Both the position numbers and the translations under genes were made by a program. From IMG/VR virus record IMGVR_UViG_3300049198_000021, positions 96,001-160,000 of that record: a DNA stretch of 64,000 bases. The stretch is one strand, 5' to 3'. Below the pieces are notes generated by a model. The model was not told the DNA's origin. It searched no databases and saw only the letters and a program-made list of their open reading frames with translations. This DNA comes from a virus (lineage: Duplodnaviria; Caudoviricetes). Positions 1,137 through 29,400 of this stretch are shown piece after piece (the stretch's first letter is position 1; every line of letters starts with the position of its first letter).

Positions 1137-1649
1137 ATGGGGACCTTCTTCACTCTCATCGGACAAGCAGTCATCGGTTGGATCATCGCTGATCTGATCG
1201 GTGGCTTTGTGCATTGGTATCTCGATCGCGTCGCCCGGCCGCGCTGGGGTTGGCTGGAGAAGACGGTCTGGGCCCCGAACCGGGTTCACCATGAAGAGCC
1301 GATGGCGTTTACCACGCACAAGTTCTTCTCCCGGAACTCGACCACCTTTGTGGCAGCATCCGTAGCGGCTGGGCTGTGGTTGCTCGTTTTCGGACCATCG
1401 ATGGTCCTGCTCTTCGCCTACATCGGCGGTATGTTGCAGAACGAAGTTCACTATTGGACTCACAAGAAGTCAACCGGGTGGATCAGGGTGTTCCAACAAA
1501 CTGGTATCATCCAGTCAATACCATCTCATGCCCGTCATCACAAACCACCGCAGAACCGAAATTACTGCGTGCTGACCGATTGGTGTAATCCAATTCTGGA
1601 ACGGCTGGATATATGGGGAAGGCTTGAGAGGTATTTCAAGTTGACATAA
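1137..1649 (+). CDS. CarF/TMEM189(PEDS1)-family lipid desaturase
   Basis: ADLIGGFVHWYLD, HHEEP, HYWTH, HARHH, NYCVLTDWCNP motifs plus TM segments. Confidence 0.82.
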   Translation: MGTFFTLIGQAVIGWIIADLIGGFVHWYLDRVARPRWGWLEKTVWAPNRVHHEEPMAFTTHKFFSRNSTTFVAASVAAGLWLLVFGPSMVLLFAYIGGMLQNEVHYWTHKKSTGWIRVFQQTGIIQSIPSHARHHKPPQNRNYCVLTDWCNPILERLDIWGRLERYFKLT

Positions 1650-1669
1650 GTTGGAAAATAGACTATGCT
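1641..1669 (+). promoter_or_regulatory. sigma70-like promoter for the head spike/fibre genes
   Basis: TTGACA-17nt-TATGCT. Confidence 0.6.
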
Positions 1670-1716: not shown

Positions 1717-2013
1717 ATGATCGATCCCTATCGTCGGGACACACCGGGCTTGGCTGATCCGGCTAACAACCTGATTCCTATTATTCCTGACGACAACGTT
1801 GACCTACCGGTTGGTATCAAAGCGTTGCGTATCTGGAACCCGAACGAATTTACAGCCACCCTTCACGTCATCACAGTAGTGGGTGATCTGGTTTCTTTTT
1901 CCGTGCCGGCTCTGTCCCTCTGGACGGAGCCTCTTCGCGTTACTCGCATCCTCACCGCCACAACGAACGGTATCGTCCTTCACGGATATACCGATCGCGC
2001 CCTTCCGGAGTAA
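1717..2013 (+). CDS. Head spike base protein (RcGTA Rcc01079-like)
   Basis: DPY..PGL.DPA...I.PDD..DLP...ALR...P.RV.RI..T.T pattern; 98 aa. Confidence 0.7.
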   Translation: MIDPYRRDTPGLADPANNLIPIIPDDNVDLPVGIKALRIWNPNEFTATLHVITVVGDLVSFSVPALSLWTEPLRVTRILTATTNGIVLHGYTDRALPE

Positions 2014-2017
2014 GTCC

Positions 2018-2551
2018 ATGTATGGATCAGGCGTCAGTGCGGGTGGAGGAGGCGGCGGCGCAGGCGGCGTGTCTCCCCGTGCCACCGGCTGGGGCAACTA
2101 TCGGGACACCCAATTTACGAGCGCCGCTCCGTTATCGATCGCAGCAAATACCCGGACCTTGATCCCAAATAACGCTGGGATCAAGGATGAGAGCCAGCTT
2201 CCAGAAGATATGGTCACCTTCTACAATCAGGTGACCAGCCGGATCATCGCCACCAACGGATCAGACTTCATCATCACCGCTCGCATTCGCATGAGACCAA
2301 CGAATGAAAATGCGACTATGGTGAAAATGGAGTTGGAAATTGGCACGACCGGGAACGAGATCATCATCGAGACCGCTCAGCGGACACTCCCGTGGGGTAT
2401 CGGTGCAGAGTCGGCGATGAATTTCACCTTCTCCGGCTACGCTCTGGATACCTTCGCAGCTACCGGGGCCCGTTTGTTCATCACATCCGACGGCCCAATC
2501 GAACTCTACGGCGTGTCCTACGTCATCAAGCGCACTCATAAGGGAGTCTGA
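2018..2551 (+). CDS. Putative head spike/fibre protein
   Basis: Follows the spike base; Gly-rich linker then a beta-rich domain; ATG at 2018 with GGAG upstream. Confidence 0.55.
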   Translation: MYGSGVSAGGGGGGAGGVSPRATGWGNYRDTQFTSAAPLSIAANTRTLIPNNAGIKDESQLPEDMVTFYNQVTSRIIATNGSDFIITARIRMRPTNENATMVKMELEIGTTGNEIIIETAQRTLPWGIGAESAMNFTFSGYALDTFAATGARLFITSDGPIELYGVSYVIKRTHKGV

Positions 2552-2552
2552 T

Positions 2553-2738
2553 ATGCCAACTCCTCTTCCATTTTCTTTTACCGAACGACTTCCCGCGATC
2601 CTCCAGCGGATCAACCCGATGATCGATGTCATCAATGTCCAGAATGCGGCCATTGAAAACCTCGAAGCGGAAGTAACCGACCTCGCTGGCCCGGCCGGTC
2701 CTGATCTAACCTTGCTGTTTGAAAACGGCCTCGTCTAA
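2553..2738 (+). CDS. Small virion/fibre adaptor protein
   Basis: GGAG RBS; coiled-coil-like; C-terminus DLTLLFENGLV resembles the C-terminus of the next protein. Confidence 0.6.
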   Translation: MPTPLPFSFTERLPAILQRINPMIDVINVQNAAIENLEAEVTDLAGPAGPDLTLLFENGLV

Positions 2739-2751
2739 ACTGGAGTAACCT

Positions 2752-3270
2752 ATGTCTCTCGCTGTCCAAGTCCAGTCGCTGGCGACCCGTATCGCTACCG
2801 AATGCAAGTCCATCCGCACGCTCGTCAACGGCAACGCGGCAAACCTCAACGCGCTGACCACGACCGACAAGACCAACCTTGTCGCCGCGCTCAACGAACT
2901 CAAGACCCTCATCGATGGTGTCAGTGCGGCCTCCGGCGCTCAGATCAACGACGCAGCGATCGCGACGACGACCACCTATTCGTCCACCAAGATCGAAGAC
3001 CTCGTTAGTGACGCGCTCGCCAGTGTCCTCAACGGAGCCCCGACGGCTCTCGACACCCTCGACGAACTGGCGAATGCGCTAGGCGACGACGCCAACTTTG
3101 CGGCGACCGTCACCAACAGCCTCGCCAACCGCGTTCGCGTCGATGCCGCACAGGGCTTGACTTCGCCCCAGCAGGCACAGGCGCGTTCCAACATCAGCGT
3201 CTACTCGCAGGCTGAAATCGGCAACCCGGAAACTGACTTCGTTGCGACCTTCAACACTGGTCTGATCTAA
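2752..3270 (+). CDS. Putative head fibre/filament subunit
   Basis: LTTTDKTNLVAALNEL, APTALDTLDELANALGDD and QAQARSNI fibre-type motifs. Confidence 0.7.
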   Translation: MSLAVQVQSLATRIATECKSIRTLVNGNAANLNALTTTDKTNLVAALNELKTLIDGVSAASGAQINDAAIATTTTYSSTKIEDLVSDALASVLNGAPTALDTLDELANALGDDANFAATVTNSLANRVRVDAAQGLTSPQQAQARSNISVYSQAEIGNPETDFVATFNTGLI

Positions 3271-3713
3271 TGTCTCTCGCGTCGCAAGTCTCGGCGCTTG
3301 CCGGCGCTATCCGGGACAAGATCAACACCATGACCCCGCGCCTGCTTCCGGCAGGGGGGACAACCGGTCAGGTCCTCTCGAAGACCAACGCAACCGACTA
3401 CAACGCCCAATGGGTTACACCAGCAGCCGGTCAAGGCGGCAGCGGTATCCCAACTCGGGAGGTGGTTGTTTCGTTCACCCAAGCTGCTTCAAGCAAGACA
3501 GTCGAGGTGGTGGATGCCGCCGCTTTAACAACTCATCGAGTAATTGCGGTTGTATCTGGTGAAGCTCCTCCGGGAGGATATGCAGATCAAGCAGAAATTA
3601 ACCCCGTCATCATTCAAGGCTTGGTTGAAGTCGATGGCACCGTAAAACTGATTGTCTCCAGCGTAAATCATCTCGTCTTTGGTGACTATCTGGTAAACTA
3701 TCACTTGAGCTAA
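3270..3713 (+). CDS. Putative fibre protein
   Basis: N-terminus paralogous to the previous gene; LPAGGTTGQVLSK..TDY..QW fibre motif. Confidence 0.65.
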   Translation: MSLASQVSALAGAIRDKINTMTPRLLPAGGTTGQVLSKTNATDYNAQWVTPAAGQGGSGIPTREVVVSFTQAASSKTVEVVDAAALTTHRVIAVVSGEAPPGGYADQAEINPVIIQGLVEVDGTVKLIVSSVNHLVFGDYLVNYHLS

Positions 3714-3723
3714 GGAATTTGTA

Positions 3724-5148
3724 ATGGCCCTCATTCACGGTGCAGGCGGAACGCCGGTCGATGTTGATGCAAACGGCACTCTCGCAACTGGCCTCTTCGA
3801 TGCGGCTGGTAACCCGATCAGCAAGACTGAGGGTGGCGCTTATTCGTCAAGCCAAGGCTTCTTGCCGATCGGCGGCGTCAACGACGGCGTGTATCGTCCG
3901 ATCCGGGTCGGACGCAGTGGTGGTATTGCTTCCACCAAATACACCCCGCTGATCGAATATCTGCTCTACACGGCGGCTCTCCCGCCCGCGTGGTTGGCTC
4001 CGGCCACCACTATGACTGTGACCCACTCGATCACGGCCGGCACGCTGCTCAACGCCTCGGCGATCGGGACTTTGAACACCAACGCTGCTATCGCCTCAAT
4101 GCAGGCGGTCCCGAAGATGCAGCGGGCTCCGGTTATGTCCCGGACACGCGCTCGCCTCATCAAGGGCGGGACAAACGGCGTCGCTGAAATCGGTGTATGC
4201 TCGACGCAGGCACCGGGTTCCGCGATCGTGCCCAACGGATTCTTCTTCCAGTATGCGGCTGATGGTTCGCTCAAGCCGGTCATCGTGTTCAACTCCGCCG
4301 TGGTGGACGCCGGTGTGGACTTTGTGGCCTCGATCGACTCGACGCGTTACTACACATGGGACATCATTGCCGACGACAACAGCATCAACTTCGTGGTGCA
4401 GGATTCCACCACCGGCGCGATCATCACCGATCAGACACTGAGCATCGGATCGGACGCAAACCGTCTGGGCTCGCTGCCTTACTTCTTCGCTTCTGCTCGG
4501 GCGTATGTGGGCGGTGTCGCCAACGTTGGTGCCGCAACCCAAATCTACGTTGCCGACATGACAGTCGGTATCCTTGATTTGGATGCTGGTAAGCCATGGG
4601 CTCATGCCATGGCGGGTATGGGTAAGGGCAGCGTCGTCAACCCGACCGTCGCTCTGGCTCAGCTTGAGAACTATGCGAACACGGCTGCACCGGCTTCGGC
4701 AACCCTATCGAACACGGCCGCTGGTTACACCACCCTCGGTGGTCAGTTCCAGTTCGCGGCTGTGGCCGGCGCTGAAACCGACTACGCCCTGTTCGCCTTC
4801 ACGGTCCCGGTGGGCGTCAAGCTCAACGTCACTGAAATCAACATCGATACGTTCAACCTCGGCGCGGCAGTTGCGACCAGTGCGACGCTGCTACAGTGGT
4901 TTGCCGGTGTGGACGGGGCGGCCGTAACCTTGGCTTCCAACAACTTCCGTAAGGTTCTCGGCGCTCAGTCGTTCCCGATCGGCGCTGCTATCGGCGCACA
5001 GGCTCCGGTTGTTTCACGTCAGTTCCAGACACCATTGGTCACCAACTCCGGACGTGTCTTCCATGTTGGTCTCAAGATGCCTCTCGGAACTGCCACGGCT
5101 TCCCAGATCATCCGTGGTTTGGTGAGCATCAACGGTTACTTCGAGTAA
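3724..5148 (+). CDS. Putative fibre tip / receptor-binding virion protein
   Basis: 474 aa, Ala/Gly/Thr-rich, beta-rich; ends the fibre gene cluster. Confidence 0.55.
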   Translation: MALIHGAGGTPVDVDANGTLATGLFDAAGNPISKTEGGAYSSSQGFLPIGGVNDGVYRPIRVGRSGGIASTKYTPLIEYLLYTAALPPAWLAPATTMTVTHSITAGTLLNASAIGTLNTNAAIASMQAVPKMQRAPVMSRTRARLIKGGTNGVAEIGVCSTQAPGSAIVPNGFFFQYAADGSLKPVIVFNSAVVDAGVDFVASIDSTRYYTWDIIADDNSINFVVQDSTTGAIITDQTLSIGSDANRLGSLPYFFASARAYVGGVANVGAATQIYVADMTVGILDLDAGKPWAHAMAGMGKGSVVNPTVALAQLENYANTAAPASATLSNTAAGYTTLGGQFQFAAVAGAETDYALFAFTVPVGVKLNVTEINIDTFNLGAAVATSATLLQWFAGVDGAAVTLASNNFRKVLGAQSFPIGAAIGAQAPVVSRQFQTPLVTNSGRVFHVGLKMPLGTATASQIIRGLVSINGYFE

Positions 5149-5150
5149 GT

Positions 5151-5194
5151 CACCGCAATTCTGACTTGACAGTGGTGGAACATTCTGATAGGTT
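5151..5194 (+). promoter_or_regulatory. Promoter with upstream conserved box
   Basis: CACCGCAATTCT-gac-TTGACA-17nt-TAGGTT. Confidence 0.65.
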
Positions 5195-5200
5195 CCTCAC

Positions 5201-5575
5201 TAATCAAATGTAGCATCACGCGCCTAGGCGGCATCTCGTTGTAAGATTGAGACCACAGGGAGGCGAGGCGGAGGTAGTAAGTCCTTGGTCGGACCAAACC
5301 CCGAGACGGACCAAACTGCGATCGAAAAGGCGGATTGTCATTTACCGAAGTGCTTGGTGTGGTAGGTAAGCCCGGTTCCAGTGGGGCCAGATGGGCAAGC
5401 CCCTTCTCACGCGTGGTAGGTCTTACAAGACCGCTCGAAGCGCGGGGATTGTTTCAAGCATCCAAACCAACACGGTAGCCCATAGTGGGTAGCGTTGGTT
5501 TGGCGGGTGGGCTCCCGAAAGCAGCCCTGTCTCCTCCCAGACTGGCCCGGCGGTGAAAGCCGCCGGGTCCTTTTT
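5201..5575 (+). ncRNA. Candidate large structured ncRNA or attenuator leader upstream of portal
   Basis: No credible ORF; promoter at the 5' end, terminator at the 3' end; long-range pairings TTGTAAGA/TCTTACAA, ACCAC/GTGGT, CCAAACCAAC/GTTGGTTTGG. Confidence 0.55.
5544..5575 (+). terminator. Rho-independent terminator
   Basis: GGCCCGGCGGT-GAAA-GCCGCCGGGTC followed by CTTTTT. Confidence 0.75.
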
Positions 5576-5591
5576 CCGGAAGTTCTTCTCC

Positions 5592-7364
5592 TTGGCTGAT
5601 AAAATCACAAAGCGGCAAGCCCGCACCTTCGCTCAGCGACAGGCGCTCTATGCTACGCGTCAGTCCAAGCAGCAGATGATGGAGAATGTCCCGCTCTTCG
5701 CGAACTGGGACTATGCCAACTGGCGCTTGATCTGGCTGGCGATCCGCCATGCCATGATCGGCGAAGTCGAGATCAAGAAGCACGGCACCGAATATCTACC
5801 CCAGCCGGAAGGTATGGACGAAAGCCAGTATTCGGCCTACCTTGATCGCGCTGTTTTCTACAACATGGTCTACCGCACCGTCACCGGCCTCACCGGTGCG
5901 ATCTATCGGCGTGACCCGCGCTTGATGAAAGCCGGCCCCAAGGTCCGCGAGCTTTCGAAGCGCATCTCCAAGGACGGCCTGTCCCTCAAGCTGTTCGCCA
6001 AGGTCATCACGCAGGAAATGCTCTCGACCGGACGCTATGGCGTTCTGGTTGACAAGACCGACGATGCAAACAGCCTGACCGCCAACCCTTACCTCGCGGG
6101 CTACACCTGCGAGAATATCTTGGACTGGACGACGACTGAGATCGATGGCCGGGACGAGTTCGACTACATCCTGCTGCGCGAGTTCAGCGTCGATCGCCGT
6201 TTCTTCGAAATGATCGCTGATCAGGTGGTTCCGAACGCCACCTACGGCCAGTTGTTCACCGTCTACCGGGTCCTCAGGCTCATCTACAACGAGATGGACA
6301 ACCGCTGGGAATACCGGCAGGAACTCTACGCTCGTGGTTCGGCCGACGCCGATCTTTCGGAAGAGCCGATCATCACGACCCCGATGGTATTTGGCGTCCC
6401 GATGAAGCGCATCCCGTTCCGCTTCTTCAATGCCACGACCAATCTAGGCGACATCGAAAAGCCGCCGATCCTCGACATCCTGACGCTCAACCTCTCGCAC
6501 TACAAGAGCTACGCTCAGCTTGAGCATGGCCGCTTCTACACCGCCAACCCGGTCTATTACGTCTCGGGCGGACAGGAAGATGACGAATACCACATCGGCC
6601 CGTCGGTCGTCTGGGAAATCGGCAACGGTGAGAAGGCCGGTATCATCGAGTTCAACGGCTCTGGTATGAAGAGCCTTGAGAACGCCTTGCAGCAAAAGGA
6701 GACGCAGGTCGCTTCGCTGGGTGGTCGGTTGCTGGGCGACTCTTCAACTGCCGGCCAGTCGGACAATCAGGTCAAGCTCAAGGACCGCAACGAAGCGTCC
6801 TTGCTTCTCAACGTCACCACGGTCCTCAACGAGAACTTCACCGAACTGCTGACCATCCTTGGAAACTGGATGAACGAACGCTCGGAAGGTCTGGAGTTCC
6901 GGGTCAACCAAGACTTCCTGCTCGATCAGGCAGCCGCCCGCGAGTTCCGCGCCATCACGATGATGTATCAGGCCGGGCTCATTGGTATCGAGATCATCTA
7001 CGAATACTTCCTCAAGGCGGATGTCATTCCTGAGTATGTGACTCTGGAAATGTTCACCAAGATGCTGGAAGATCAGGCTCAGTTCCCGAACAACCCAGAC
7101 TTCGAAAGCCGCCAGCAAGGGTTCCCGGATGCCCGGACCCAGCGCGCCGACGAACTGGCTCGCGATCTGGACGACAACGAGACCGATCGCCTCGACACCG
7201 AATTGGAATCGGACGAAGCGATCGCCGAAGAGTCCCGCAAGTCAGCCGAGAAGGTTGCCAAGTCACAGCCCAAGATCGCGCCTGTCCCGGCGACTGCCAA
7301 GCAGGCAATGCAAAAAGACGCCCCAGCGGTGGCTCCGGCCCCAAAGCCACAGCCAAAGGCGTAA
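5592..7364 (+). CDS. Portal protein (DUF4055-type); start uncertain (5553/5592/5677)
   Basis: YLP......Y.AYL.RAVFYN, GRYGVLVD, PPILDI..LNLSHY motifs; position ahead of scaffold and capsid. Confidence 0.85.
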   Translation: MADKITKRQARTFAQRQALYATRQSKQQMMENVPLFANWDYANWRLIWLAIRHAMIGEVEIKKHGTEYLPQPEGMDESQYSAYLDRAVFYNMVYRTVTGLTGAIYRRDPRLMKAGPKVRELSKRISKDGLSLKLFAKVITQEMLSTGRYGVLVDKTDDANSLTANPYLAGYTCENILDWTTTEIDGRDEFDYILLREFSVDRRFFEMIADQVVPNATYGQLFTVYRVLRLIYNEMDNRWEYRQELYARGSADADLSEEPIITTPMVFGVPMKRIPFRFFNATTNLGDIEKPPILDILTLNLSHYKSYAQLEHGRFYTANPVYYVSGGQEDDEYHIGPSVVWEIGNGEKAGIIEFNGSGMKSLENALQQKETQVASLGGRLLGDSSTAGQSDNQVKLKDRNEASLLLNVTTVLNENFTELLTILGNWMNERSEGLEFRVNQDFLLDQAAAREFRAITMMYQAGLIGIEIIYEYFLKADVIPEYVTLEMFTKMLEDQAQFPNNPDFESRQQGFPDARTQRADELARDLDDNETDRLDTELESDEAIAEESRKSAEKVAKSQPKIAPVPATAKQAMQKDAPAVAPAPKPQPKA

Positions 7365-7367
7365 TCG

Positions 7368-7544
7368 ATGAGTAACCCGGACTACGACATCCACTTGGAT
7401 CGAGATCAGTTCAATTCTTTGTTCGACGATGATGGAGAGTCCGGGTTCCCTTACGGGGAAGATTTGGATGACATTGAACGTGCTATAGCCGAGGAACTAG
7501 GTCCTTCAAAGCCTAGGAAGAAGAGAAAGAACCCTAAAAAGTAA
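7368..7544 (+). CDS. Small hypothetical protein (acidic N-terminus, basic C-terminus)
   Basis: 58-aa ORF directly after the portal. Confidence 0.5.
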   Translation: MSNPDYDIHLDRDQFNSLFDDDGESGFPYGEDLDDIERAIAEELGPSKPRKKRKNPKK

Positions 7545-7558
7545 CTTTTTTATTCCAT

Positions 7559-7602
7559 CACCGCCATTTTAGCTTGACAGTGCATGGAAAATCTCGTATC
7601 CT
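7559..7602 (+). promoter_or_regulatory. Promoter of the scaffold/capsid operon with conserved box
   Basis: CACCGCCATTTT-agc-TTGACA-17nt-TATCCT. Confidence 0.75.
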
Positions 7603-9751: not shown

Positions 9752-10195
9752 ATGGCAAAGCTCAAGTCCAACTTCAAGTATATGCTCGACGCTGCACCGT
9801 CGATCACTTTCCGCGACGGCTCGGCCGCTGCCCTCACGGCAGACGCCAACACCGCTGCGATCGTTCTCGATACCCTCGACGGCTACTGGAACACCAACAA
9901 CGAACTGGCTGACAGCACGTTCGCTGTCGTGATCAACGTCAACCAACTCGACGAGACCACTGGCGACGAAACCTACGTCCTCAACCTCGTCGCCGGCCCG
10001 GTTGGCTTCGCCACCTCGACCGTCGTTGGCACCGTGACCGTCCGCGAAACCGGCCAGCACGTCATCCTCGTTGATGTCGATACCGTCCGCAAGTCGGTGG
10101 CGAATGCCGAAGCCCTCCGCATCGCGGTGGATGTGACTGGCACCACGCCGATCATCGATTTCACTGCCTTCATCGGCGGCGCGATCATCCGCTAA
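9752..10195 (+). CDS. Capsid decoration / minor capsid protein
   Basis: 147 aa beta-rich protein after MCP; strong RBS. Confidence 0.6.
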   Translation: MAKLKSNFKYMLDAAPSITFRDGSAAALTADANTAAIVLDTLDGYWNTNNELADSTFAVVINVNQLDETTGDETYVLNLVAGPVGFATSTVVGTVTVRETGQHVILVDVDTVRKSVANAEALRIAVDVTGTTPIIDFTAFIGGAIIR

Positions 10196-21959: not shown

Positions 21960-22362
21960 TGACTTCATCGCAGCAGCCCGTTCTTATATGGGGGTGCGTT
22001 GGCGGCATCAGGGACGCAACCGGCTAGGGGTTGATTGTGTCGGCCTCGTGCTTTGCAGCCTGTCTGATATTGGTATCCCCGCACCGGACATGCAAGGCTA
22101 CCGACGGACGCCTGACCCGATCTTCGTCGAACACATTCGAAACAATTCGCTACCAGCCGAAGGCACACAGCCGGGAACCCTCGGAATTTTCCGAGACGGA
22201 ACCCAGCCATGTCACGTAGGTATCTTTGCAACTATGCATGGACAAACTTCCTTGATCCACGCCTACGCAGGCACAGGGATCGTCATGGAAGAAGTCTTCA
22301 TCCACGATTGGCCGAAAAAGCTAGTCGAGGTCCGCGCATTCAAGGGACTTGAATACATCTAA
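21946..22362 (+). CDS. NlpC/P60 tail-associated peptidase (GTA g14-like)
   Basis: AARSY.G.RWRHQGR...GVDCVGL, HVGI, IHAY. Confidence 0.88.
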   Translation: MPNSDDFIAAARSYMGVRWRHQGRNRLGVDCVGLVLCSLSDIGIPAPDMQGYRRTPDPIFVEHIRNNSLPAEGTQPGTLGIFRDGTQPCHVGIFATMHGQTSLIHAYAGTGIVMEEVFIHDWPKKLVEVRAFKGLEYI

Positions 22363-25300
22363 TGGGACAACTCGCGACCACCATCGTCGGCGGCGTCGTC
22401 GGCTTCGCGATCGGCGGGCCCTTCGGGGCTCAGGTCGGGATGATGCTTGGCGGCATGATCGGTGCCACGCTGTTTGGTCCGACCGTTCACGGCCCGCGTC
22501 TGAATGATCTCAAGGTCACAGCCTCGACCTACGGTGTTGCGATCCCTGAAATTTACGGGACCGTCCGGGTGGGTGGAAACATGATCTGGACCAGCGGCAT
22601 TAAGGAGACCAAGAAGTCTTCACGCCCCGGTAAAGGCGGCCCGAAGCAAACGACCTATTCCTACGACGCCACTTTTGCTATGGCGTTGTGTAAGGGAGAG
22701 GTCGAAGAAATTCTTCGCATCTGGGCCGATAGCAAAATCATCTACGATAAGACTGGTGGAACGACTCGGGCACCGGCCCCCGCCGGCAGCGACGGCGTTT
22801 TCCAAACCTTGTTCTTGGAAATTCTTACCACCAAGAAGAAGAAGAAGACAATCAATGTCAGGCTTTATCGAGGCGACGAAAACCAACTCCCGGACTCTCT
22901 GATCGAAGCAGATAAGGGAGTGGGGAACGTTTCGGCTCACCGTGGGCTTTCTTATGTTGTGTTCGAGCGGTTGCAGTTGGAGAACTTCGGTAACCGCATC
23001 CCTCAAATGACCTTCGAAGTCACCAAGGCCCGGACCCGTGGTCTGGCGGCCTTACCCGTGCGTGACCGTAGTGGGGTCATCGAGAACACAGCGAACCGAG
23101 ACTGGCTACCTGACTTCGCGTCGGGCCGGTTGCTCAGCTTTGATCGCAGTGGCGACGGCACCAAACTCTACAATATGGCGGACAACACGCTGATTGCAGA
23201 GGACGAGACCATGAATTTTGATCTGACCGATAAGTCCTACAGTCTTATCGAAGGTCAGAACGCCTTACTGGTTGCCAATTTCCCAGCCGGCGTCGGTTTT
23301 TCCTACTACAACACCGGTATTCTGACCAAGATCAACGAATACAACACGGCCAGCGGGACAACCAACATCTGGGACCCGGTGGCTAAGGAAATCACACTAG
23401 CTACAAACGGAAAGATCGGACACGGACGGTTTGTCTCGGGTGTTTCAGGCAGCGTGCATGTCGTCCATACCGATGTGACCGGCACAACCTTCTTGATGGA
23501 CAGTGAAGGGCGTCTCCTTAATGAGTTCGATGCCCCTTTCCAACCTGATGTTTTCCTAGAAGGACGACGCGACGCGTCAAACTCCCAGATCATCGGGTGG
23601 CGGTTTGCCAATGATCAACTCGAAATGTTCGAGGTCAAGACCGATTCGTCGGCGATCTATACGACGATCTTGGAAGCTGGCACTGAGACGTGGGTTCCCC
23701 AAACTGACTTCGCAGTGAGAAGCATCAACCTTAAACCATACCCGGCTGAGAAATTCCAACCACTGGCTCTGGTTTATGACCCAACAGACGACCATTTCTT
23801 CTGTCTTGGTGTTGATCCAGATAAATACAATGACATCGACTCCTTCGGTAACGGGGGCGGAGTCATCGTATTCAAATACTCCTTGGAGACCAATTCCTAC
23901 AAGTTCTTGGTGAAGCACGGCGGGACTCCCGTCCCTCGTGGTCTGACGCAAAACATGCGCGCCTCGCGTCTCGCTGGGGGCACGTTCGGGTGGATAGGTA
24001 AGCCAGCCGTCGGCGATCCAACGGTCAACCAAGTAAGCCTGCAAAATGGTAGTCTGGAAAACCTATTCGAAGCACAGGACGATTTCGGGTCTGGGCTCAC
24101 AGGAGTCGGGGATCAGTATTGGGACGACGAGACGGACAGCATCTTCGCTGATCGTATCGTGGCCGGTGTAACTAACAGCTATCGCCTGCGAGTCAGCGAT
24201 AGCATAGCACAGGTAACGGTTCCGGCGATCGTTGAGGACATCTGCGTCCGGAGCGGCATCTTGGCGCTGGAAGACATCGACATCACAGAGTTGGATGCGT
24301 CACCACTGGTGGGTTACTCCCTCGACCGAATGACAACTGCTCGGGATGCCTTGAAGCAGATGGCTACGGCGTTCCTCTTCGATGGCTATGAGAGCGATTA
24401 CAAGCTCAAGTTCCGCTCGCGTGGTGGTGACACGATCGTCAACATCCCGGAAGACTGGATGGCCCGTGAAGGGGAAGATGGTGTCATCAAAGAGACCATC
24501 ACGCAAGAGCTTGAGATGCCGGTCCGGATCAGCGTCAACTATTACGACATTGCCCGAGACCACCAGCAGAATAGCCAGACGGCGAAGCGCAAGGTTGCCC
24601 CCTATCCGACCATGTGGACGGCCAAGGAAGACCTCATCGACCTGCCCATCACATGGGACGCGGACTCGGCCAAGCAGTGTGCGGACAAGCTGCTCAAGAT
24701 GGCATGGGCAAACCGTGTCGGACACCAGTTCAACTTACCGTGGCGTTATCTGAAATACGATCCGACGGATGTCATCACCATCACGATGGAAAATGAGACG
24801 ACCTACAACCTGCGCCTCACCGAAGCGAACATTGGGTCCAACTTCTCGATCGAAGCACAGGCGGTTAGCGAAGTCGCGACCGCTTATGTCTCGACCGCGA
24901 CTGGTGCCCAAGCGCCGGCTCCCATCCAGACAGTTGAGGGTGATGGGACTGCCTTCCCGATCATCATGAATACGCCGTTGCTGCGTGATGTGGATTACGA
25001 CACCACCGGCTCTTCGATCTGCTATTTCTCGGCAGGGACCAACGAGATCAGCTTCAACGGAGCGGCGGTCTACATTGATGATGGTAGCGACTATCAGGCC
25101 GTGGGTGTCATCGATAACCAAACGACTACGGGATACGCTATTGATGCGCTCCCGAATACGAACAGCTACGAAGCCACTGACGAGACTACAGTCATTCGGG
25201 TGCGTTTGTCTGATCCAAGCATGGAGCTTGAATCGGTCACACAAGACGACATCCTGAACTTCGAAGCCAACTCGGCTTTGATCGGAAACGAGATCATCCA

Positions 25301-25964
25301 GTTCCGTGACGCAACCCTACTACCGACCGGTGAGTGGGCTCTGTCTGGTATTCTCCGCGCCCGGCGGGGCACGAACTATGCTGTGAAGGGACACCAACGA
25401 GGCGAGAACTTCCTGCTGGTCAACAGCCTCTCGACTGGTAAATTCTCCCGCCCGCCTGAGAGCTACGTCACTACCCGGTTGTTCAAGGCAGCCCCCCTGT
25501 CGGTCCCTCTGTCCGATGTGGTTCCGATTTCCGTGGACCTTATCCCGCGTGACCTTATGCCATACACCCCTGAGGCTGTTAAGGTGACCGACGACGCGAC
25601 TGATGTAGTCATAAGCGCCGAACGTCGTTCGCGTGTCACAGCGTCTCTCAGAGACGGTGTAAGCACCATTCACTACAAGGAAGGGGATATGCTCAGCGCC
25701 CGGATCGAGACCAAGGTCTGGTTCGGAAAAGGATTGGCCGATGTCAACTCCGTCGGCGCGGCTGACCTGACACTGACGAGCTACCTCTTTGACGCGGCTG
25801 GGGTGGACATTCCGGTGGAAGCTACATTCCCTGTCGCTTCCATGGGAGCAGAAGATACGGTCCTGATCCAACTCGCTGAGATTGGCGAAGTGACGGGAAC
25901 GCCCAAGTGGGTTCAAGCCACTCGCTACGGAACCGGACTGTGGGACCTTCTCGAATTGTATTGA
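22362..25964 (+). CDS. Tail tip / host-specificity protein (megatron-like), copy 1
   Basis: GPRL.DL.V..STYG..IP..YGT.R, AHRGL.YVVF, FGNRIP, LRARRGT. Confidence 0.85.
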   Translation: MGQLATTIVGGVVGFAIGGPFGAQVGMMLGGMIGATLFGPTVHGPRLNDLKVTASTYGVAIPEIYGTVRVGGNMIWTSGIKETKKSSRPGKGGPKQTTYSYDATFAMALCKGEVEEILRIWADSKIIYDKTGGTTRAPAPAGSDGVFQTLFLEILTTKKKKKTINVRLYRGDENQLPDSLIEADKGVGNVSAHRGLSYVVFERLQLENFGNRIPQMTFEVTKARTRGLAALPVRDRSGVIENTANRDWLPDFASGRLLSFDRSGDGTKLYNMADNTLIAEDETMNFDLTDKSYSLIEGQNALLVANFPAGVGFSYYNTGILTKINEYNTASGTTNIWDPVAKEITLATNGKIGHGRFVSGVSGSVHVVHTDVTGTTFLMDSEGRLLNEFDAPFQPDVFLEGRRDASNSQIIGWRFANDQLEMFEVKTDSSAIYTTILEAGTETWVPQTDFAVRSINLKPYPAEKFQPLALVYDPTDDHFFCLGVDPDKYNDIDSFGNGGGVIVFKYSLETNSYKFLVKHGGTPVPRGLTQNMRASRLAGGTFGWIGKPAVGDPTVNQVSLQNGSLENLFEAQDDFGSGLTGVGDQYWDDETDSIFADRIVAGVTNSYRLRVSDSIAQVTVPAIVEDICVRSGILALEDIDITELDASPLVGYSLDRMTTARDALKQMATAFLFDGYESDYKLKFRSRGGDTIVNIPEDWMAREGEDGVIKETITQELEMPVRISVNYYDIARDHQQNSQTAKRKVAPYPTMWTAKEDLIDLPITWDADSAKQCADKLLKMAWANRVGHQFNLPWRYLKYDPTDVITITMENETTYNLRLTEANIGSNFSIEAQAVSEVATAYVSTATGAQAPAPIQTVEGDGTAFPIIMNTPLLRDVDYDTTGSSICYFSAGTNEISFNGAAVYIDDGSDYQAVGVIDNQTTTGYAIDALPNTNSYEATDETTVIRVRLSDPSMELESVTQDDILNFEANSALIGNEIIQFRDATLLPTGEWALSGILRARRGTNYAVKGHQRGENFLLVNSLSTGKFSRPPESYVTTRLFKAAPLSVPLSDVVPISVDLIPRDLMPYTPEAVKVTDDATDVVISAERRSRVTASLRDGVSTIHYKEGDMLSARIETKVWFGKGLADVNSVGAADLTLTSYLFDAAGVDIPVEATFPVASMGAEDTVLIQLAEIGEVTGTPKWVQATRYGTGLWDLLELY

Positions 25965-26011: not shown

Positions 26012-26413
26012 ATGCCCAACACACCGCTCCTCAATATCCCGCAGGTTTCAGGCTCCCAGAACAACAAAGAAATCACGATTAACGATGCCGTTCTCGCGTT
26101 GGAAAACGCGATGAGCGCGAACCTCGTGGTTTCCTTGGCGAGCAGCAGCGACGTTACGCTGACCCAAACCCAAGCTACCCGTAACTTCATCTACACCGCC
26201 ACTGGCGCAACAGTGGCAAGCATTCTGCGCTTCCCGAACACAATCGGTGCGGTCAACTTCAATCGGGTCATCTGTGTCCGCAACACCAGTGGAGCCCTGC
26301 TGACTGTGCAATTCGCAACCGGTGCCGGAGCCTCTGTCGAAATCCCAGACGGACAGGCTCGATTGATTCTGGCTATCAACGGGCTGGACATGATTGCGGT
26401 TTCCGCTCCTTAA
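26012..26413 (+). CDS. Short tail-fibre anchor-only protein
   Basis: 133 aa; paralogous over its length to the N-terminus of the 30043 fibre. Confidence 0.75.
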   Translation: MPNTPLLNIPQVSGSQNNKEITINDAVLALENAMSANLVVSLASSSDVTLTQTQATRNFIYTATGATVASILRFPNTIGAVNFNRVICVRNTSGALLTVQFATGAGASVEIPDGQARLILAINGLDMIAVSAP

Positions 26414-26432: not shown

Positions 26433-29400
26433 ATGGGTCAACTTGTTACCACCATCGTCGGCGGCGTCATCGGCTTCCTTATCGGGGGACCGATGGGTGC
26501 GTCTATTGGTATGGCGCTGGGTGGAATGGTTGGTGCTACGCTGTTTGGTCCTACGATCAAGGGCCCGCGTCTCAATGACCTCAAGGTTTCTTCCTCGACC
26601 TACGGGATTGCGATCCCTGAAATCTACGGCACTGTCCGTCTCAGCACGAACCTGATCTGGACAACCGGGATCAAGGAAACCAAGAAGACGCGCCGCGCCG
26701 GCAAGGGCGGTCCCAAGGTCGAGACTTATTCCTACGATGCATCGTTTGCTTTGGGCCTTTGCAAGGGCCCGATCCGTGAGATTCTTCGCATCTGGGCGGA
26801 CAGTAAACTAATTTACGATGTCAGCAACAACGGAACCCGTAACCCGCTGAACGCGGGTCAATCCGGTATTCTGGCCCCGGTCCTGCTGTCGTTCAGAACG
26901 GGAGGAACCAAGAAAAAGCGGGTAAACCTGCGTATCTATCTGGGGAACGAGGAGCAGCTACCGGATTCGCTTATTGAAGCAGATAAGGGCGTCGGGAATG
27001 TCTCGGCTCACCGGGGCTTGGCCTATGTGGTATTCGAACGCCTCCAGCTTGAAGACTTCGGGAATCGCATCCCTCAGTTCACCATGGAAGTTACCAAAGC
27101 ACCGGCCGAAGCCTTCCCCTCGGTGGAGCAAAAAGAAGGACCGGCAGGCACTGTTGCACAACCGGATGCTAGAAACTGGTTCCCTGATTGGGAAAACGGC
27201 AAGGTTTACTCCAGCATTATTTCTAACGACGCGGAGGATGCTTACACGGAAGTGTTCGACCTCAATACTATGCAGAACATGCAGCGTTGGGATCGATCGA
27301 ATATGTGGTTCACTGGTCGATATGGTTTCGCGCCATGGGCTGGTATATTTATGCAAGACGATGGCGGGGGTAACTCCAGACCACTAGGGGTCTACAGTCT
27401 CAGCACTGGGGCTCGTATCGGCTTGTATGGTCAAAGTTCGCGCTCCCTGTCAGGTTACTATGTAGAATCGGGCCCTGCCCGAGGTGCTTTGGCTGTGGCG
27501 GCCAATTTTGGTAACCAAGCCACAGTGACACTGGATGGCAAGTATATCATGCTGGCCGGCTGGACCCGAGATAATTGGATTCTGACCAGAGGCGGAACAC
27601 CGGTCGGATGGTATGAAGGCGCTTGGTCGCCTTTCCACCTGATGCCCGCTCTTGGGTCGGTGTGGGGATGGCGTAGCGGCAACAGCGGGTTGCAGATTGC
27701 GGACTTCATCAGCGGCGGAATAGGACAATACTCGCTTGCTCCGCCCGACTCAAACGGAAACGTCTTTTGGAGACAGGGCGGTAGCCTTGCCTTCGACACC
27801 ACTCTGCGCCCACTACCCGGTGAGACTTATGTTCCATCGATATGCCTGTTCGATCCCTCGGACGGTCATTTCTTTAGTATTGGGCGATCGAACAACGGCT
27901 CCAGATCAATCCCGGTGGCTTTCAAATACAGCCCAATAACTGGGCTGTATAAATTCATCAATGCCGATCCAGAAATTCTGGTTCCAAATGGACCCATGCA
28001 ATGGTCGCGCCTAAACGGAGGGACTTTCGGTTATATTGCCGACTCCTTAAATCGAAACGTCAAAGTAAACTTACAGCAAATCAACTTACAGAACGGGGAA
28101 ATCGTAAGAGATTCGCGCTACGGAAGCACTTGGGGTGGCCCTATCTATGTAAGAGCGGACCAGCACTGGGATGATGTGAGTTCCAGTATTATTACAACCA
28201 CCAAAGATACCTTCCGTCGCATCTGGTTCAACAGCAACGCTAAGGCAGTTCGTCTGTCTGATGTTGTGCGCGATATTGCTACAAAATCCAATGTCCTGAC
28301 TGTCGATGAACTCGATACCACGAATTTATTCGATCAAGAGATTATTGGTTTCTCTATCGATAGGCAGTCGTCTGCGATGGATGCACTAAAGCTCCTAGCA
28401 ACCGGATATATGTTTGACGCCTACGAGAGCGATTACAAGCTCAAGTTCCGGACGCGTGGGCGAGATTCGGAGGTGGTAATCCCGCAAGACTGGATCGCCC
28501 GGTCTTCCGATGAGTTTATCAAAGAGAACATTGTCCAAGAGCTTGAGATGCCTCTCAAGGTCACGGTGAACTACTATGACACAGCGCGTGATCACCAGCA
28601 AGGCTCGCAGTCGTCGCGCCGCAACGCCGGGCCTTTCCCGACCATGTGGACGGCCAAGGAAGATATTATCGATCTCCCGTTGGTCTGGACACCGGACATG
28701 GCTAAGCAATCAGCAGACAAGCTGCTCAAGATGGCGTGGGCAAATCGTGTCGGCCTGCAATTCACTCTACCTTGGCGCTACCTGAAATACGAACCGTCGG
28801 ACATTATCACGCTCACCACTGATACAGCGACCTATTTCACGCGCCTAACTGAGACCACGATCGGGCAAGATTTCTCGATCGAGGCTTCCGGGGTGACTGA
28901 TAAAGCCAGTGCCTATGTATCGACCAAGGTCGGTAGTCGAGTGGATTCGCCGGAGCAGATTATCGAAGAAGGCTACCCAGCTTTCCCGATCGTGATCAAC
29001 ACCCCGTTGTTACGCGATGAAGACTATGACACCAGCGGAGCCTCTATTTGTTTCGTATCCGCCGGCACGAATGCCTTCACGTTCAGTGGAGCAGCTATCT
29101 ATGTTTACGACGGAATTGAAGACCAACGGATCGGCTTTATTGGTGCTGACACCGTGCGTGGAAGAGTTATCAACGAACTTCCATATACGACCGCATACGA
29201 ATCTACCGACGAAACCACTGTGCTAAAAGTTGTCCTGAACAACCCCAACGACGAGCTTGAGTCAGTGACCCAACTCGATATGCTTAACTTCGACATGAAC
29301 GCAGCTTTGGTGGGTGAGGAAGTTATCCAATTCCGGGATGCTGTGCAGCAACCCGACGGTGAGTGGTGGCTGACTGGTCTCCGCCGGGCCCGGCGCGGAA

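What the first reader, a model, noticed from the sequence alone, without database searches (positions are those of the whole stretch)
2553..5148. Putative self-polymerising head-filament system with matching end motifs (initiator, repeat unit, cap, tip)
Seen: protein A (61 aa) ends DLTLLFENGLV and protein B (172 aa) ends DFVATFNTGLI. B starts MSLAVQVQSLATRI and protein C (147 aa) starts MSLASQVSALAGAI. So A has only the C-terminal motif, B has both, and C has only the N-terminal motif; a 474-aa beta-rich protein follows. The cluster lies directly downstream of GTA-like head-spike genes, far from the tail genes. Inference: if the C-motif docks onto the N-motif, A nucleates, B chains head-to-tail into a filament of variable length, and C caps it and carries the tip. 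Established: some alphaproteobacterial siphoviruses (phiCbK) carry long head filaments that engage the flagellum. This would be a gene-level assembly logic for such an appendage.
Basis: partly seen in the sequence, partly recalled or inferred. Interest (0 to 1): 0.8.

Follow-up and report, generated by a model that had tools for sequence, protein, structure and literature searches.

The report
Segmented phage fibre with plug-and-socket ends
A large phage of Erythrobacter-type bacteria encodes a fibre made of three separately translated pieces plus a sugar-binding tip; the pieces carry matching end motifs found in many unrelated phages, which most likely join them end to end in a fixed order rather than letting one piece polymerise into a filament.

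Summary
A (61 aa) ends with a C-motif, B (172 aa) has an N-motif and a C-motif, and C (147 aa) starts with the N-motif. In the 176.5-kb genome these motifs occur only at those four termini.

The same gene order and end motifs recur in Caulobacter jumbo phages, Sinorhizobium T4-like phages, actinophages, Pseudomonas phages and Burkholderiales prophages. The motifs are almost always terminal.

End-to-end docking has indirect support:
- N-motifs preceded by a C-motif share a small-residue face that partner-less ones lack.
- A second flavour of the joint changes on both sides together.
- One natural fusion has lost exactly the connector.
- Close relatives swap the tip after residue ~50 of C.

Polymerisation of B is not supported:
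- The A|B and B|C joints have distinct, conserved flavours.
- B and C are translationally coupled.
- B is never duplicated, and its length varies genetically (137–598 aa).

D is a tandem lectin-like protein, probably the receptor-binding tip.

A head location is plausible. The cluster shares an operon with a true homologue of the RcGTA head-spike base, which lies in the head module. This is unproven: in other phages the cassette follows an LtfC-like tail-collar gene, and Bxb1 gp4 shows that gene position does not reveal location. The complex predictor was unavailable.

The parts
1641..1669 (+). Promoter-like site (TTGACA-17-TATGCT) just upstream of the spike-base gene; possible start of the transcription unit running from the base gene through D
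   Evidence: Consensus scan, 10/12 match. The number of promoter-like sites does not exceed the shuffle expectation, so this is weak. No strong terminator-like site until 5544-5569.
1717..2013 (+). 98-aa head-spike base protein (RcGTA Rcc01079 family)
   Evidence: NCBIfam NF048002 at 43.4 bits, cut-off 28. A family profile of 63 sequences matches PDB 6tb9/6tsu 'Head spike base Rcc01079' at E = 2.2e-12 over profile positions 3-86. In related phages the gene sits between phoH and portal.
2015..2551 (+). 178-aa protein with a Gly-rich N-terminus (MYGSGVSAGGGGGG...) and a beta-rich body; candidate head-spike fibre or knob by synteny with rcc01080
   Evidence: phrog_8270. Conserved with the base, A and B in L095/L096 at 69-76% identity. 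Weak similarity to podovirus structural-module proteins. No sequence match to Rcc01080.
2553..2738 (+). Protein A, 61 aa: proximal segment. It has a group-specific N-terminus, a helical stretch, two collagen-like triplets (GPAGPD) and a C-terminal connector motif of the 'A-end' flavour (LTLLFENGLV, 2706-2735).
   Evidence: 79-82% identical in L095/L096. The C-motif HMM built without window sequences scores 15.6 bits. A-type proteins in 12 other loci are listed.
2752..3270 (+). Protein B, 172 aa: fibre shaft. It has the N-motif (2752-2820), the generic phage-fibre repeat (...APTALDTLDELANALGDDANFA...) and a C-motif of the 'B-end' flavour (DFVATFNTGLI, 3235-3267).
   Evidence: phrog_4757 at E = 6e-52, plus about 20 tail-fibre PHROGs. 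A profile matches Bxb1 gp4 'tail collar fibers' (9D93, E = 7e-8) and 80alpha FibU (6v8i). Homologues in 305 phage records.
3270..3713 (+). Protein C, 147 aa: adaptor. It has the N-motif (3270-3341), a foldon-like GQVL-K-DY-W hairpin, and a C-terminal beta domain (about residues 59-147) that pairs with D. Its start codon overlaps B's stop codon (TAATG).
   Evidence: phrog_22680 on residues 5-54. The C-terminal domain matches the 104-aa protein upstream of a D homologue in an unrelated myovirus contig at E = 4e-7. The first ~50 residues are conserved in L095/L096 while the rest is replaced.
3724..5148 (+). Protein D, 474 aa: two tandem concanavalin-A/legume-lectin-like beta-sandwiches; probable sugar-binding distal tip
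   Evidence: AF2 with a 40-sequence alignment: pLDDT 80, pTM 0.74. Foldseek PDB hits to legume lectins, VIP36/ERGIC-53 and SO2946, E about 1e-7, target-normalised TM 0.52-0.61 for the single-domain lectin hits. At least 1,797 homologues of 470-480 aa in metagenomes; none in 50,697 isolated phage records.

Best explanation
Genes 1717-5148 form one operon for an accessory receptor-binding fibre built from separately translated segments.

A (61 aa), B (172 aa) and C (147 aa) are each inferred to form trimers. The inference rests on collagen-like triplets in A-type proteins, heptad spacing in the N-motif, fibre-shaft repeats in B and a foldon-like hairpin in C.

The segments are inferred to join end to end and non-covalently. 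The short amphipathic C-terminal motif of one segment ([DN]-x-x-x-x-F-[EN]-x-[AG]-L-x-stop) packs against the first turns of the N-terminal coiled coil of the next (M-S-L-x3-[IV]-x2-L-A-x-R-I-x2-E-x-K).

The A|B joint and the B|C joint have different, conserved flavours, so assembly is ordered as A-B-C in roughly 1:1:1 ratio. It is not an open-ended B polymer.

C is an adaptor. Its N-terminal ~50 residues dock on B, and its C-terminal beta domain carries D, a tandem lectin-like protein that probably binds a host surface polysaccharide. Relatives exchange this distal part, presumably to change receptor specificity.

In this phage the proximal end (the N-terminus of A, perhaps together with the 178-aa protein) is most likely mounted on the RcGTA-type spike base at the capsid vertices. 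That would give head fibres for reversible first attachment. This last step is the least secure.

Shown: genes, motifs, their conservation and terminal position, junction-specific flavours, tip swapping, the predicted lectin-like fold of D, homology of the base.
Inferred: trimeric state, physical docking, stoichiometry, location on the virion, ligand.
For: 1. Conserved grammar. The A/B/C order with the same terminal motifs occurs in CcrBL9 gp128-130, phiM7 gp76-74, Tanis gp3-5, Touem01 gp44-46, A3Wally gp234-235 and Ralstonia proviruses, and in 80 IMG/VR loci. The motifs are terminal in 70/76 (C) and 128/138 (N) hits.

2. Partner dependence. Ala at N-motif position 11 occurs in 11/12 B-starts with an upstream A and in 36/38 C-starts, but in only 1/21 partner-less B-starts (p = 7e-7 and 2e-12). 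Position 12 is small in 11/12 and 36/38, against 5/21.

3. A second joint flavour changes on both sides. B-ends reading D-x-x-A-x-Y-T-T-A-K-A go with partner starts reading LAQAIGADIK, in 12 loci.

4. Natural fusion P0153 joins the A-like ...PHPVYDD directly to the N-motif helix and lacks exactly the ...LFENGL-stop/MS connector.

5. Ordered assembly rather than polymerisation. Asn at F+2 occurs in 11/12 A-ends and 0/43 B-ends. Phe/Tyr at F-4 occurs in 1/12 A-ends and 37/43 B-ends. No locus has tandem B genes. B|C distance is 12 nt or less in 53/55 junctions, with overlap in 23; the window has TAATG.

6. Module swap. L095/L096 keep the base, the 178-aa protein, A and B (69-93% identity) and the first ~50 residues of C, but have a different C-terminus and a 280-aa protein in place of D.

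7. C-to-D link. C's C-terminal domain matches the small protein upstream of D in a myovirus contig (E = 4e-7).

8. D has a lectin-like fold.

9. Head mounting. The base is homologous to the solved RcGTA head spike base. The base gene is a fixed resident next to portal in related phages, with variable cargo beside it. The genes are tightly packed, with one promoter-like site and no internal strong terminator. The complete genome has no LtfC-like collar gene. In RcGTA the base holds a fibre through the fibre's N-terminal peptide (PMC7296036).
Against:
- The comparative statistics use non-redundant sequences that are not phylogenetically independent. The partner-less B-starts are largely one clade of Burkholderiales proviruses, and the second joint flavour may reflect a single event.
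- 41 loci have B-C without an adjacent A. Two near-complete such proviruses have no A-type protein at all. So the N-motif can function without a C-motif partner, and B must attach to something else there.
- Head location rests on gene adjacency in one phage group only. Spike-base homologues are absent from all other ABC loci examined. Tanis has an LtfC-like tail-collar gene upstream. B's only solved relatives are tail fibres: Bxb1 gp4 and 80alpha FibU.
- By synteny with RcGTA the 178-aa protein, not A, is the expected occupant of the base.
- RcGTA's base binds a single fibre chain, not a trimer.
Confidence: 0.55

Rival explanations
1. One reading: A nucleates on the head, B polymerises head-to-tail through its own C- and N-motifs into a filament of variable length, C caps it and D is the tip, giving a phiCbK-like head filament.
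For: B carries both motifs. In A-less phages the only C-motif in the genome is B's own. The window's B-start is of the 'partner-accepting' type, LATRI. The cluster sits next to a head-spike base gene.
Against: - A-end and B-end flavours are distinct and conserved (FEN in 9/12 A-ends against 0/43 B-ends; Asn at F+2 in 11/12 against 0/43).
- B-start and C-start also differ: Ala9 in 0/37 against 20/36, Phe18 in 25/37 against 3/36.
- In A-less phages the B-start has lost the Ala11/small-12 face that every C-motif-preceded N-terminus keeps.
- B|C translational coupling suggests equimolar synthesis.
- Shaft length varies genetically from 137 to 598 aa with both motifs retained.
- No tandem B genes.
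- The phiCbK head-filament candidate is unrelated, and phiCbK is not among the Caulobacter records hit by B.
Confidence: 0.08
2. The segmented fibre is as described, but it is mounted on the tail or neck (a lateral or collar fibre, as in T5/DT57C LtfA-LtfC or Bxb1 gp4). Its adjacency to the head-spike base gene is only a shared insertion hotspot next to the portal gene.
For: B's shaft matches Bxb1 gp4 'tail collar fibers' and 80alpha FibU. Bxb1 gene 4 is encoded far from the tail genes. Tanis gp2, upstream of its A-type gene, is LtfC-like at 73 bits, and LtfC is a tail collar that holds fibre N-termini (PMC10713586). The closest isolate, XM05, lacks the whole insert. By synteny with RcGTA the base could be fully served by the 178-aa protein.
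Against: The complete genome has no LtfC-like gene. The N-terminus of A is specific to this phage group and travels with the base and the 178-aa gene in all three phages that have it. The six genes are packed as one unit. The tail module already has several large fibre or megatron-like proteins.
Confidence: 0.27
3. The matching ends do not dock on each other. The N-motif is a common plug by which B and C each attach, as alternative fibres, to the same virion site. The C-motif is a folding or trimerisation cap.
For: In A-less phages B's N-motif has no C-motif partner. Shared N-termini among alternative fibres are common in phages (established knowledge of branched and alternative receptor-binding proteins).
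Against: This does not explain several observations: a C-motif is almost always followed within 12 nt by an N-motif gene; N-motif positions 11-12 depend on the presence of an upstream C-motif; both sides change together in the second flavour; fusion P0153 drops the connector. C-type proteins lack any C-motif yet presumably fold.
Confidence: 0.08
4. The motifs are by-products of gene-boundary constraints (ribosome-binding sites, overlapping stop and start codons) or recombination linkers for module shuffling, and have no role at the protein level.
For: The junctions are tightly coupled, and module exchange does occur in this region.
Against: Conservation is at the amino-acid level across hosts of very different G+C content and across phyla. 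It extends 11-24 residues from the boundary. The observed swap point lies about 50 residues inside C, not at the gene boundary.
Confidence: 0.02

Closest known systems
RcGTA head spike (base Rcc01079 plus fibre Rcc01080; Bardy et al. 2020, PMC7296036)
   Same: The 98-aa protein is a sequence homologue of the solved base. In RcGTA a pentamer of base proteins on each capsid penton holds a flexible, lectin-like, polysaccharide-binding fibre through the fibre's N-terminal peptide. Here too a beta-rich protein with a Gly-rich N-terminus follows the base gene, and the system ends in a lectin-like protein.
   Different: RcGTA has a single one-chain fibre. Here four more genes (A-D) follow, encoding a segmented, probably trimeric fibre with terminal connector motifs. 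There is no sequence similarity to Rcc01080. Attachment of A-D to the base is not shown.
T5-like lateral tail fibres (DT57C LtfC collar, LtfA, LtfB; PMC10713586)
   Same: A small beta-sandwich ring protein is encoded next to a fibre whose N-terminal strands plug into it; a trimeric coiled coil then projects outward, with a second fibre protein attached to the first. The Tanis, L090 and L034 versions of the cassette are preceded by LtfC-like genes (a clear match in Tanis, weaker in the other two).
   Different: The window's genome has no LtfC-like gene. The LtfA-LtfB joint is a branch, not a short terminal motif pair. The DT57C system is on the tail.
Mycobacteriophage Bxb1 gp4 'tail collar fibers' (PDB 9D93) and Staphylococcus phage 80alpha FibU (6v8i)
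   Same: They share the central shaft repeat of B (APxALDTLxELAxALGxDxNFA). Bxb1 gene 4 is likewise encoded beside the terminase/head region, away from the tail genes.
   Different: Bxb1 gp4 is a single 356-aa chain with a fused Ig-like anchor. It has no N- or C-connector motif.
T4 long tail fibre (gp34-gp35-gp36-gp37)
   Same: A fibre assembled end to end from separately encoded segments in a fixed order, with the receptor-binding part distal (from established knowledge).
   Different: Proteins are unrelated and the joints are globular or hinge-like, with a monomeric gp35. No short conserved terminal motif pair is shared across joints.
Chain-like fibres of podophages A1002, GP4 and VP1 (PMC13730344)
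   Same: Fibres composed of many small subunits in series.
   Different: Those are dimers threaded on a separate 'rope' protein by beta-augmentation. They are not trimers joined by terminal motifs.
phiCbK head filament (candidate gp76; PMC3556154)
   Same: An alphaproteobacterial siphophage with a related capsid and portal. CcrBL9's MCP and CcrPW's portal are homologous to the window's.
   Different: The candidate is one 2,799-aa Gly-rich protein. The Caulobacter records hit by B are Bertelyvirus-type phages and BL57, not phiCbK.

Membership tests
RcGTA head-spike base (Rcc01079 family, NCBIfam NF048002) | Sequence membership above the curated cut-off | tested here: met
   43.4 bits against a cut-off of 28, E = 3e-11, for ORF 1717-2013.
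RcGTA head-spike base (Rcc01079 family, NCBIfam NF048002) | Homology to the structurally solved base chain | tested here: met
   A profile of 63 family members matches PDB 6tb9/6tba/6tsu/6tui 'Head spike base Rcc01079' at E = 2.2e-12, profile positions 3-86 to chain residues 2-79. It also matches 8cjz 'Spike Base Protein' at E = 0.004.
RcGTA head-spike base (Rcc01079 family, NCBIfam NF048002) | Jellyroll fold | tested here: inconclusive
   The AF2 model from a shallow alignment has pLDDT 57. It is a six- to seven-strand beta protein, but the match to 6tb9 is only Z = 2.3.
RcGTA head-spike base (Rcc01079 family, NCBIfam NF048002) | Pentamer seated on capsid pentons | not testable with these tools
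   Needs cryo-EM. Support is limited to the gene's fixed position beside portal in related phages.
RcGTA head-spike fibre (Rcc01080) | Sequence similarity to Rcc01080, and an N-terminal (Ile/Leu-Gly)n star peptide | tested here: not met
   The 178-aa protein, A and D gave no RcGTA chain at E <= 1. The 178-aa protein has a Gly-rich N-terminus (YGSGVSAGGGGGG), but not the Leu-Gly repeat described in PMC7296036.
T5-type lateral tail fibre system (LtfC collar plus LtfA) | LtfC-like beta-sandwich protein (Pfam PF23926) encoded with the fibre | tested here: not met
   No PF23926 match in the whole 176.5-kb genome at E <= 1, nor in the 98-aa protein. The feature is met in Tanis gp2 (73 bits) and weakly in L090 and L034.
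Generic phage fibre shaft (repeat shared with Bxb1 gp4 and 80alpha FibU; PHROG tail-fibre families) | Central APxALDTLxELAxALGxDxNFA repeat | tested here: met
   B profile against 9d93 gp4 at E = 7e-8 and 6v8i gp68 at E = 3e-4. About 20 tail-fibre PHROGs. Longer relatives carry PF12789, PF18454, PF13884 and PF07484.
T4 fibritin (Pfam Fibritin_C PF07921) | Score above the gathering threshold | tested here: not met
   17.6 bits against a cut-off of 21, E = 0.004. This is only a coiled-coil-like resemblance.
Concanavalin-A-like lectin/LamG jellyroll (protein D) | Fold similarity of each half of the protein to legume-lectin-type beta-sandwiches | tested here: met
   Foldseek E about 1e-7, probability 1.0, target-normalised TM 0.52-0.61 to 4m3c, 3zvx, 1g9f, 2a5z and VIP36, on a model with pLDDT 80. 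Sugar binding itself was not tested.
phiCbK-type head filament (gp76-like) | Very large Gly-rich protein in the head module | tested here: not met
   Nothing of that kind lies in the cluster. The feature is taken from PMC3556154.

The most novel reading that the evidence does not exclude
B really does polymerise. Its C-motif can accept its own N-motif as well as C's, so that A nucleates, B extends and C-D caps. That would give head filaments of variable length on capsid vertices, a gene-encoded nucleate/extend/cap logic for a viral appendage.

The evidence does not strictly exclude this for the window phage. Its B-start is of the partner-accepting type (LATRI), and no binding specificity was measured.
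Probability: 0.08. Interest if true: 0.85.

Novelty: new variant of a known kind. Interest (0 to 1): 0.6.

Why it matters
Multi-segment phage fibres are known (T4, T5-like, branched tailspikes), but their joints are idiosyncratic.

Here a short, recognisable pair of terminal motifs marks the joints of a three-piece fibre cassette. The cassette has spread through siphophages, myophages, jumbo phages and proviruses of Alpha-, Beta- and Gammaproteobacteria and of Actinobacteria. Its proximal 'plug' and distal 'tip' are interchangeable.

If the motifs are a genuine non-covalent connector, three things follow:
1. Many small 'hypothetical' ORFs beside fibre genes could be annotated by rule.
2. It would show how phages re-mount one fibre on different virion sites (capsid spike base here, LtfC-like collar elsewhere).
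3. It would offer a natural plug-and-socket for swapping receptor-binding tips in laboratory phages.

The finding also points to a large, unnamed family of tandem-lectin tip proteins (D). These are abundant in metagenomes and absent from isolated phages.

Tried and rejected
- Fold of the 98-aa base. I submitted a shallow alignment of close relatives before the broad profile search had returned. That gave pLDDT 57 and an uninformative VIA search, with RcGTA base at Z = 2.3, rank 19. The broad sequence profile against the PDB settled the homology instead.
- Literature. Searches for the phiCbK head filament, phiM12 'capsid-related' protein, HbP1, 8CJZ and tail collar fibres did not explain the phiM7 gp75 annotation or identify 8CJZ. 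I found no description of the motif pair.
- A simple Glu (C-motif) to Arg13 (N-motif) salt-bridge covariation was considered and dropped, because there are several exceptions.
- Programmed frameshift fusing the 178-aa ORF to A. This was rejected on inspection: there is no slippery site, and AAGGGAG lies 6 nt before A's ATG, which is an ordinary ribosome-binding site.
- A back-translated DNA pattern for extra C-motifs in A-less proviruses was too strict. It was replaced by fetching two whole proviruses and scanning them with the HMMs.
- Small proteins upstream of the cassette in CcrBL9, phiM7 and Bxb1 gave no spike-base or LtfC assignment by sequence.
- The apparent fusion P0187 looks like a frameshifted gene call, not a real A-B fusion.


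Full report
**What is there.** The window is part of a complete 176.5-kb siphophage genome. It is related to Erythrobacter phages XM05 and vB_EliS-L02 and to Sphingobium phage Lacusarx. Between phoH (1-774) plus a lipid desaturase gene (1137-1649) and the portal gene (5553-7364) lie six tightly packed + strand genes:
- a 98-aa protein (1717-2013)
- a 178-aa protein (2015-2551)
- A (2553-2738, 61 aa)
- B (2752-3270, 172 aa)
- C (3270-3713, 147 aa)
- D (3724-5148, 474 aa)

B's stop codon overlaps C's start codon (TAATG). The other gaps are 1-13 nt and contain ribosome-binding sites. One promoter-like site precedes the 98-aa gene, and there is no strong terminator-like site before 5544. Head genes follow (portal, scaffold, epsilon15-type capsid), and then a GTA-like tail module from about 10.8 kb.

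**Is it more than chance?** I built small HMMs of the N-terminal and C-terminal motifs from homologous cassettes in other phages, leaving the window's own sequences out. I scanned all six frames of the genome with them.
- The N-motif scores 29.5 bits at the B start and 17.1 at the C start; the next best hit scores 5.5.
- The C-motif scores 22.2 bits at the B end and 15.6 at the A end; the next best scores 5.6 (with the window's sequences included).

**The grammar is conserved.** The same arrangement occurs in many phages: the upstream protein ends with the C-motif, a B-type protein carries both motifs, and the downstream protein starts with the N-motif.
- Caulobacter jumbo phage CcrBL9 (gp128/129/130)
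- Sinorhizobium T4-like phage phiM7 (gp76/75/74)
- Gordonia phage Tanis (gp3/4/5)
- Pseudomonas phage Touem01 (gp44/45/46, also just upstream of portal)
- Microbacterium phage A3Wally (gp234/235)
- Ralstonia proviruses, without an A

In 80 further IMG/VR loci, 70 of 76 C-motif hits end within three residues of a stop codon, and 128 of 138 N-motif hits begin at the initiator Met. The architectures are B-C (41 loci), A-B-C (12) and B with a divergent end followed by C (11). There are never two B genes in tandem.

**What the proteins are.**
- B matches phrog_4757 (E = 6e-52) and about twenty tail-fibre PHROGs. Its central repeat matches the solved Bxb1 gp4 'tail collar fibers' (PDB 9D93, the Bxb1 tail tip) and 80alpha FibU. 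Longer relatives carry classic fibre domains.
- A-type proteins have diverse N-terminal parts. These are often beta-strand-rich, with a few collagen-like G-X-Y triplets before the C-motif.
- C has the N-motif helix, a GQVL-K-x-DY-x-W hairpin resembling a foldon, and a beta domain.
- D has at least 1,797 unnamed homologues of uniform length in metagenomes, yet none in 50,697 isolated phage genomes. It folds confidently (pLDDT 80) into two tandem concanavalin-A/legume-lectin-like sandwiches.

**Does the C-motif dock on the N-motif?** The complex predictor was unavailable, so the evidence is comparative.

1. N-motifs preceded by a C-motif share a small-residue face. These are all C-starts, plus B-starts that have an upstream A. 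Ala at position 11 occurs in 36/38 and 11/12 of them. Among B-starts without any A it occurs in 1/21; those have Val followed by Leu/Ile. The contrast holds even between B and C of the same cassette.
2. In twelve loci the joint has a second flavour that differs on both sides. The B-end reads D-x-x-A-x-Y-T-T-A-K-A, and the partner start reads LAQAIGADIK in place of LAxRIGxEVK.
3. One natural fusion protein (P0153) joins an A-like ...PHPVYDD segment directly to the N-motif helix and lacks exactly the ...LFENGL-stop/Met-Ser connector.
4. The hydrophobic spacing fits a helix packing on a coiled coil. The C-motif has F/L-x3-F-x3-L, and the N-motif has heptad-like L3-I7-L10-I14-F18. This is read directly from the sequences and is inference.

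Caveats apply. The sequences are not phylogenetically independent. Two near-complete A-less proviruses contain no A-type protein at all, so a B N-terminus can also function without a C-motif partner.

**Polymer or ordered chain?** The two joints are not alike.
- Asn at F+2: 11/12 A-ends, 0/43 B-ends.
- Phe/Tyr at F-4: 1/12 A-ends, 37/43 B-ends.
- Ala at position 9: 0/37 B-starts, 20/36 C-starts.
- Phe at position 18: 25/37 B-starts, 3/36 C-starts.

B and C are separated by 12 nt or less in 53 of 55 distinct junctions, and overlap in 23. That argues for equimolar synthesis. B-type proteins that keep both motifs range from 137 to 598 aa, so shaft length is set by the gene. In A-less phages B's own N-terminus has lost the partner-accepting face. 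All of this favours a defined A-B-C rod over an open-ended B polymer. B-B binding in the window phage was not measured and cannot be excluded.

**Modularity.** Two close relatives (L095, L096) keep the base, the 178-aa protein, A and B at 69-93% identity, and also the first ~50 residues of C. After that point they have a short C ending in GDVWIDTN (as in phiM7 gp74) and an unrelated 280-aa protein in place of D. [quoted passage not shown] So C is an adaptor between the B shaft and exchangeable tips. This is the usual signature of receptor-binding modules.

**Where on the virion?** The 98-aa protein is a true homologue of the RcGTA head-spike base. It passes the NCBIfam cut-off, and a 63-member profile matches the solved chain at E = 2e-12. 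In RcGTA, a pentamer of this protein sits on each capsid penton and holds one fibre chain by the fibre's N-terminal peptide; that fibre is flexible, lectin-like and binds capsule polysaccharide (PMC7296036 and PMC10218006).

In related phages the base gene sits between phoH and portal, with variable neighbours:
- nothing between the base gene and portal in L097-L099 (in L098 and L099 a 214- or 250-aa ORF lies between phoH and the base gene)
- an unrelated three-gene set in L100
- the 178-A-B-C-D set in the window, L095 and L096

The genome has no LtfC-like collar gene. These points make capsid-vertex mounting the best guess.

It is not shown, however. Spike-base homologues are absent from every other ABC locus examined. 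In Tanis the cassette follows a clear LtfC-like gene (73 bits), and LtfC is the tail collar that grips fibre N-termini in DT57C (PMC10713586). Bxb1 gene 4 lies left of the terminase gene, yet its product is on the tail. By synteny with RcGTA, the 178-aa protein is the expected occupant of the base. The most economical view is that the N-terminal part of A is the variable plug, matching whatever socket a given phage provides.

**Comparison with known systems.** The phiCbK head-filament candidate is a 2,799-aa Gly-rich protein (PMC3556154). The 12 Caulobacter records hit by B are Bertelyvirus-type phages and BL57, not phiCbK. The chain-like fibres of podophage A1002 are dimers strung on a rope protein, which is a different principle (PMC13730344). 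T4 and T5-like fibres are multi-segment but use unrelated joints. I found no description of this motif pair, though my literature access was limited.

**Verdict.** The docking idea is supported indirectly. Polymerisation is unlikely, and head mounting is plausible but open. I file this as a new variant of a known kind: a multi-segment, modular phage receptor-binding fibre.

Noticed in passing
window 3724-5148 (protein D) and loci L088-L091: D belongs to a very large family of uniform length (470-480 aa; at least 1,797 hits). It is unnamed, has no Pfam domain and is absent from 50,697 isolated phage genomes. It is found in myovirus-like and other contigs, always preceded by a small beta protein.
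   Followed up: partly
window 1137-1649: Phage-borne lipid desaturase (Pfam Lipid_desat, E = 9e-33) between phoH and the spike-base gene. It is also present in relative L095 and absent from XM05.
   Followed up: no
window 5149-5552: About 400 nt without a convincing ORF between D and portal, ending in a strong terminator-like hairpin at 5544-5569. Relatives L097-L099 keep a gap of similar size (roughly 400-560 nt) between the base gene and portal.
   Followed up: no
window 22362-25964 and 26433-29993; also 26012-26413 and 30043-34422: Two paralogous tail proteins of about 1,200 aa (both phrog_4271 plus phrog_1101). A 133-aa ORF and the N-terminus of the 1,459-aa protein share phrog_11660/11585. 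This looks like a duplicated distal tail module.
   Followed up: no
L001 (Erythrobacter phage XM05) 8640-9845; window 9752-10195: After the capsid gene XM05 has two paralogues with alike N-termini (MAKLHDKLKYMFDAAP / MAKMNDKIKYMYDAAP), annotated 'tail fiber protein' and 'major tail protein'. By position and size they look more like head decoration proteins. The window has one (phrog_427).
   Followed up: no
L090 6172-9431: A cassette with the same layout but without the N/C motif grammar: LtfC-like 112 aa, an A-like 102 aa with collagen triplets, a 262-aa fibre, a 128-aa C-like adaptor and a D homologue. Alternative joints therefore exist.
   Followed up: partly
L098 5302-5946 and L099 4116-4868: Cys-rich HNH-like ORFs of 214-250 aa lie between phoH and the spike-base gene in two relatives. 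The phoH-portal interval appears to be an insertion hotspot.
   Followed up: no
L002 (CcrBL9) 5112-5507 and 7199-7570: Two paralogous small proteins (gp127, gp132; phrog_240 'head protein') flank the ABC cassette of this Caulobacter jumbo phage. They might be its anchors.
   Followed up: no
PDB 8cjz chain h: A second solved 'Spike Base Protein' (92 aa) matches the spike-base profile (E = 0.004). I could not identify the entry's source.
   Followed up: partly
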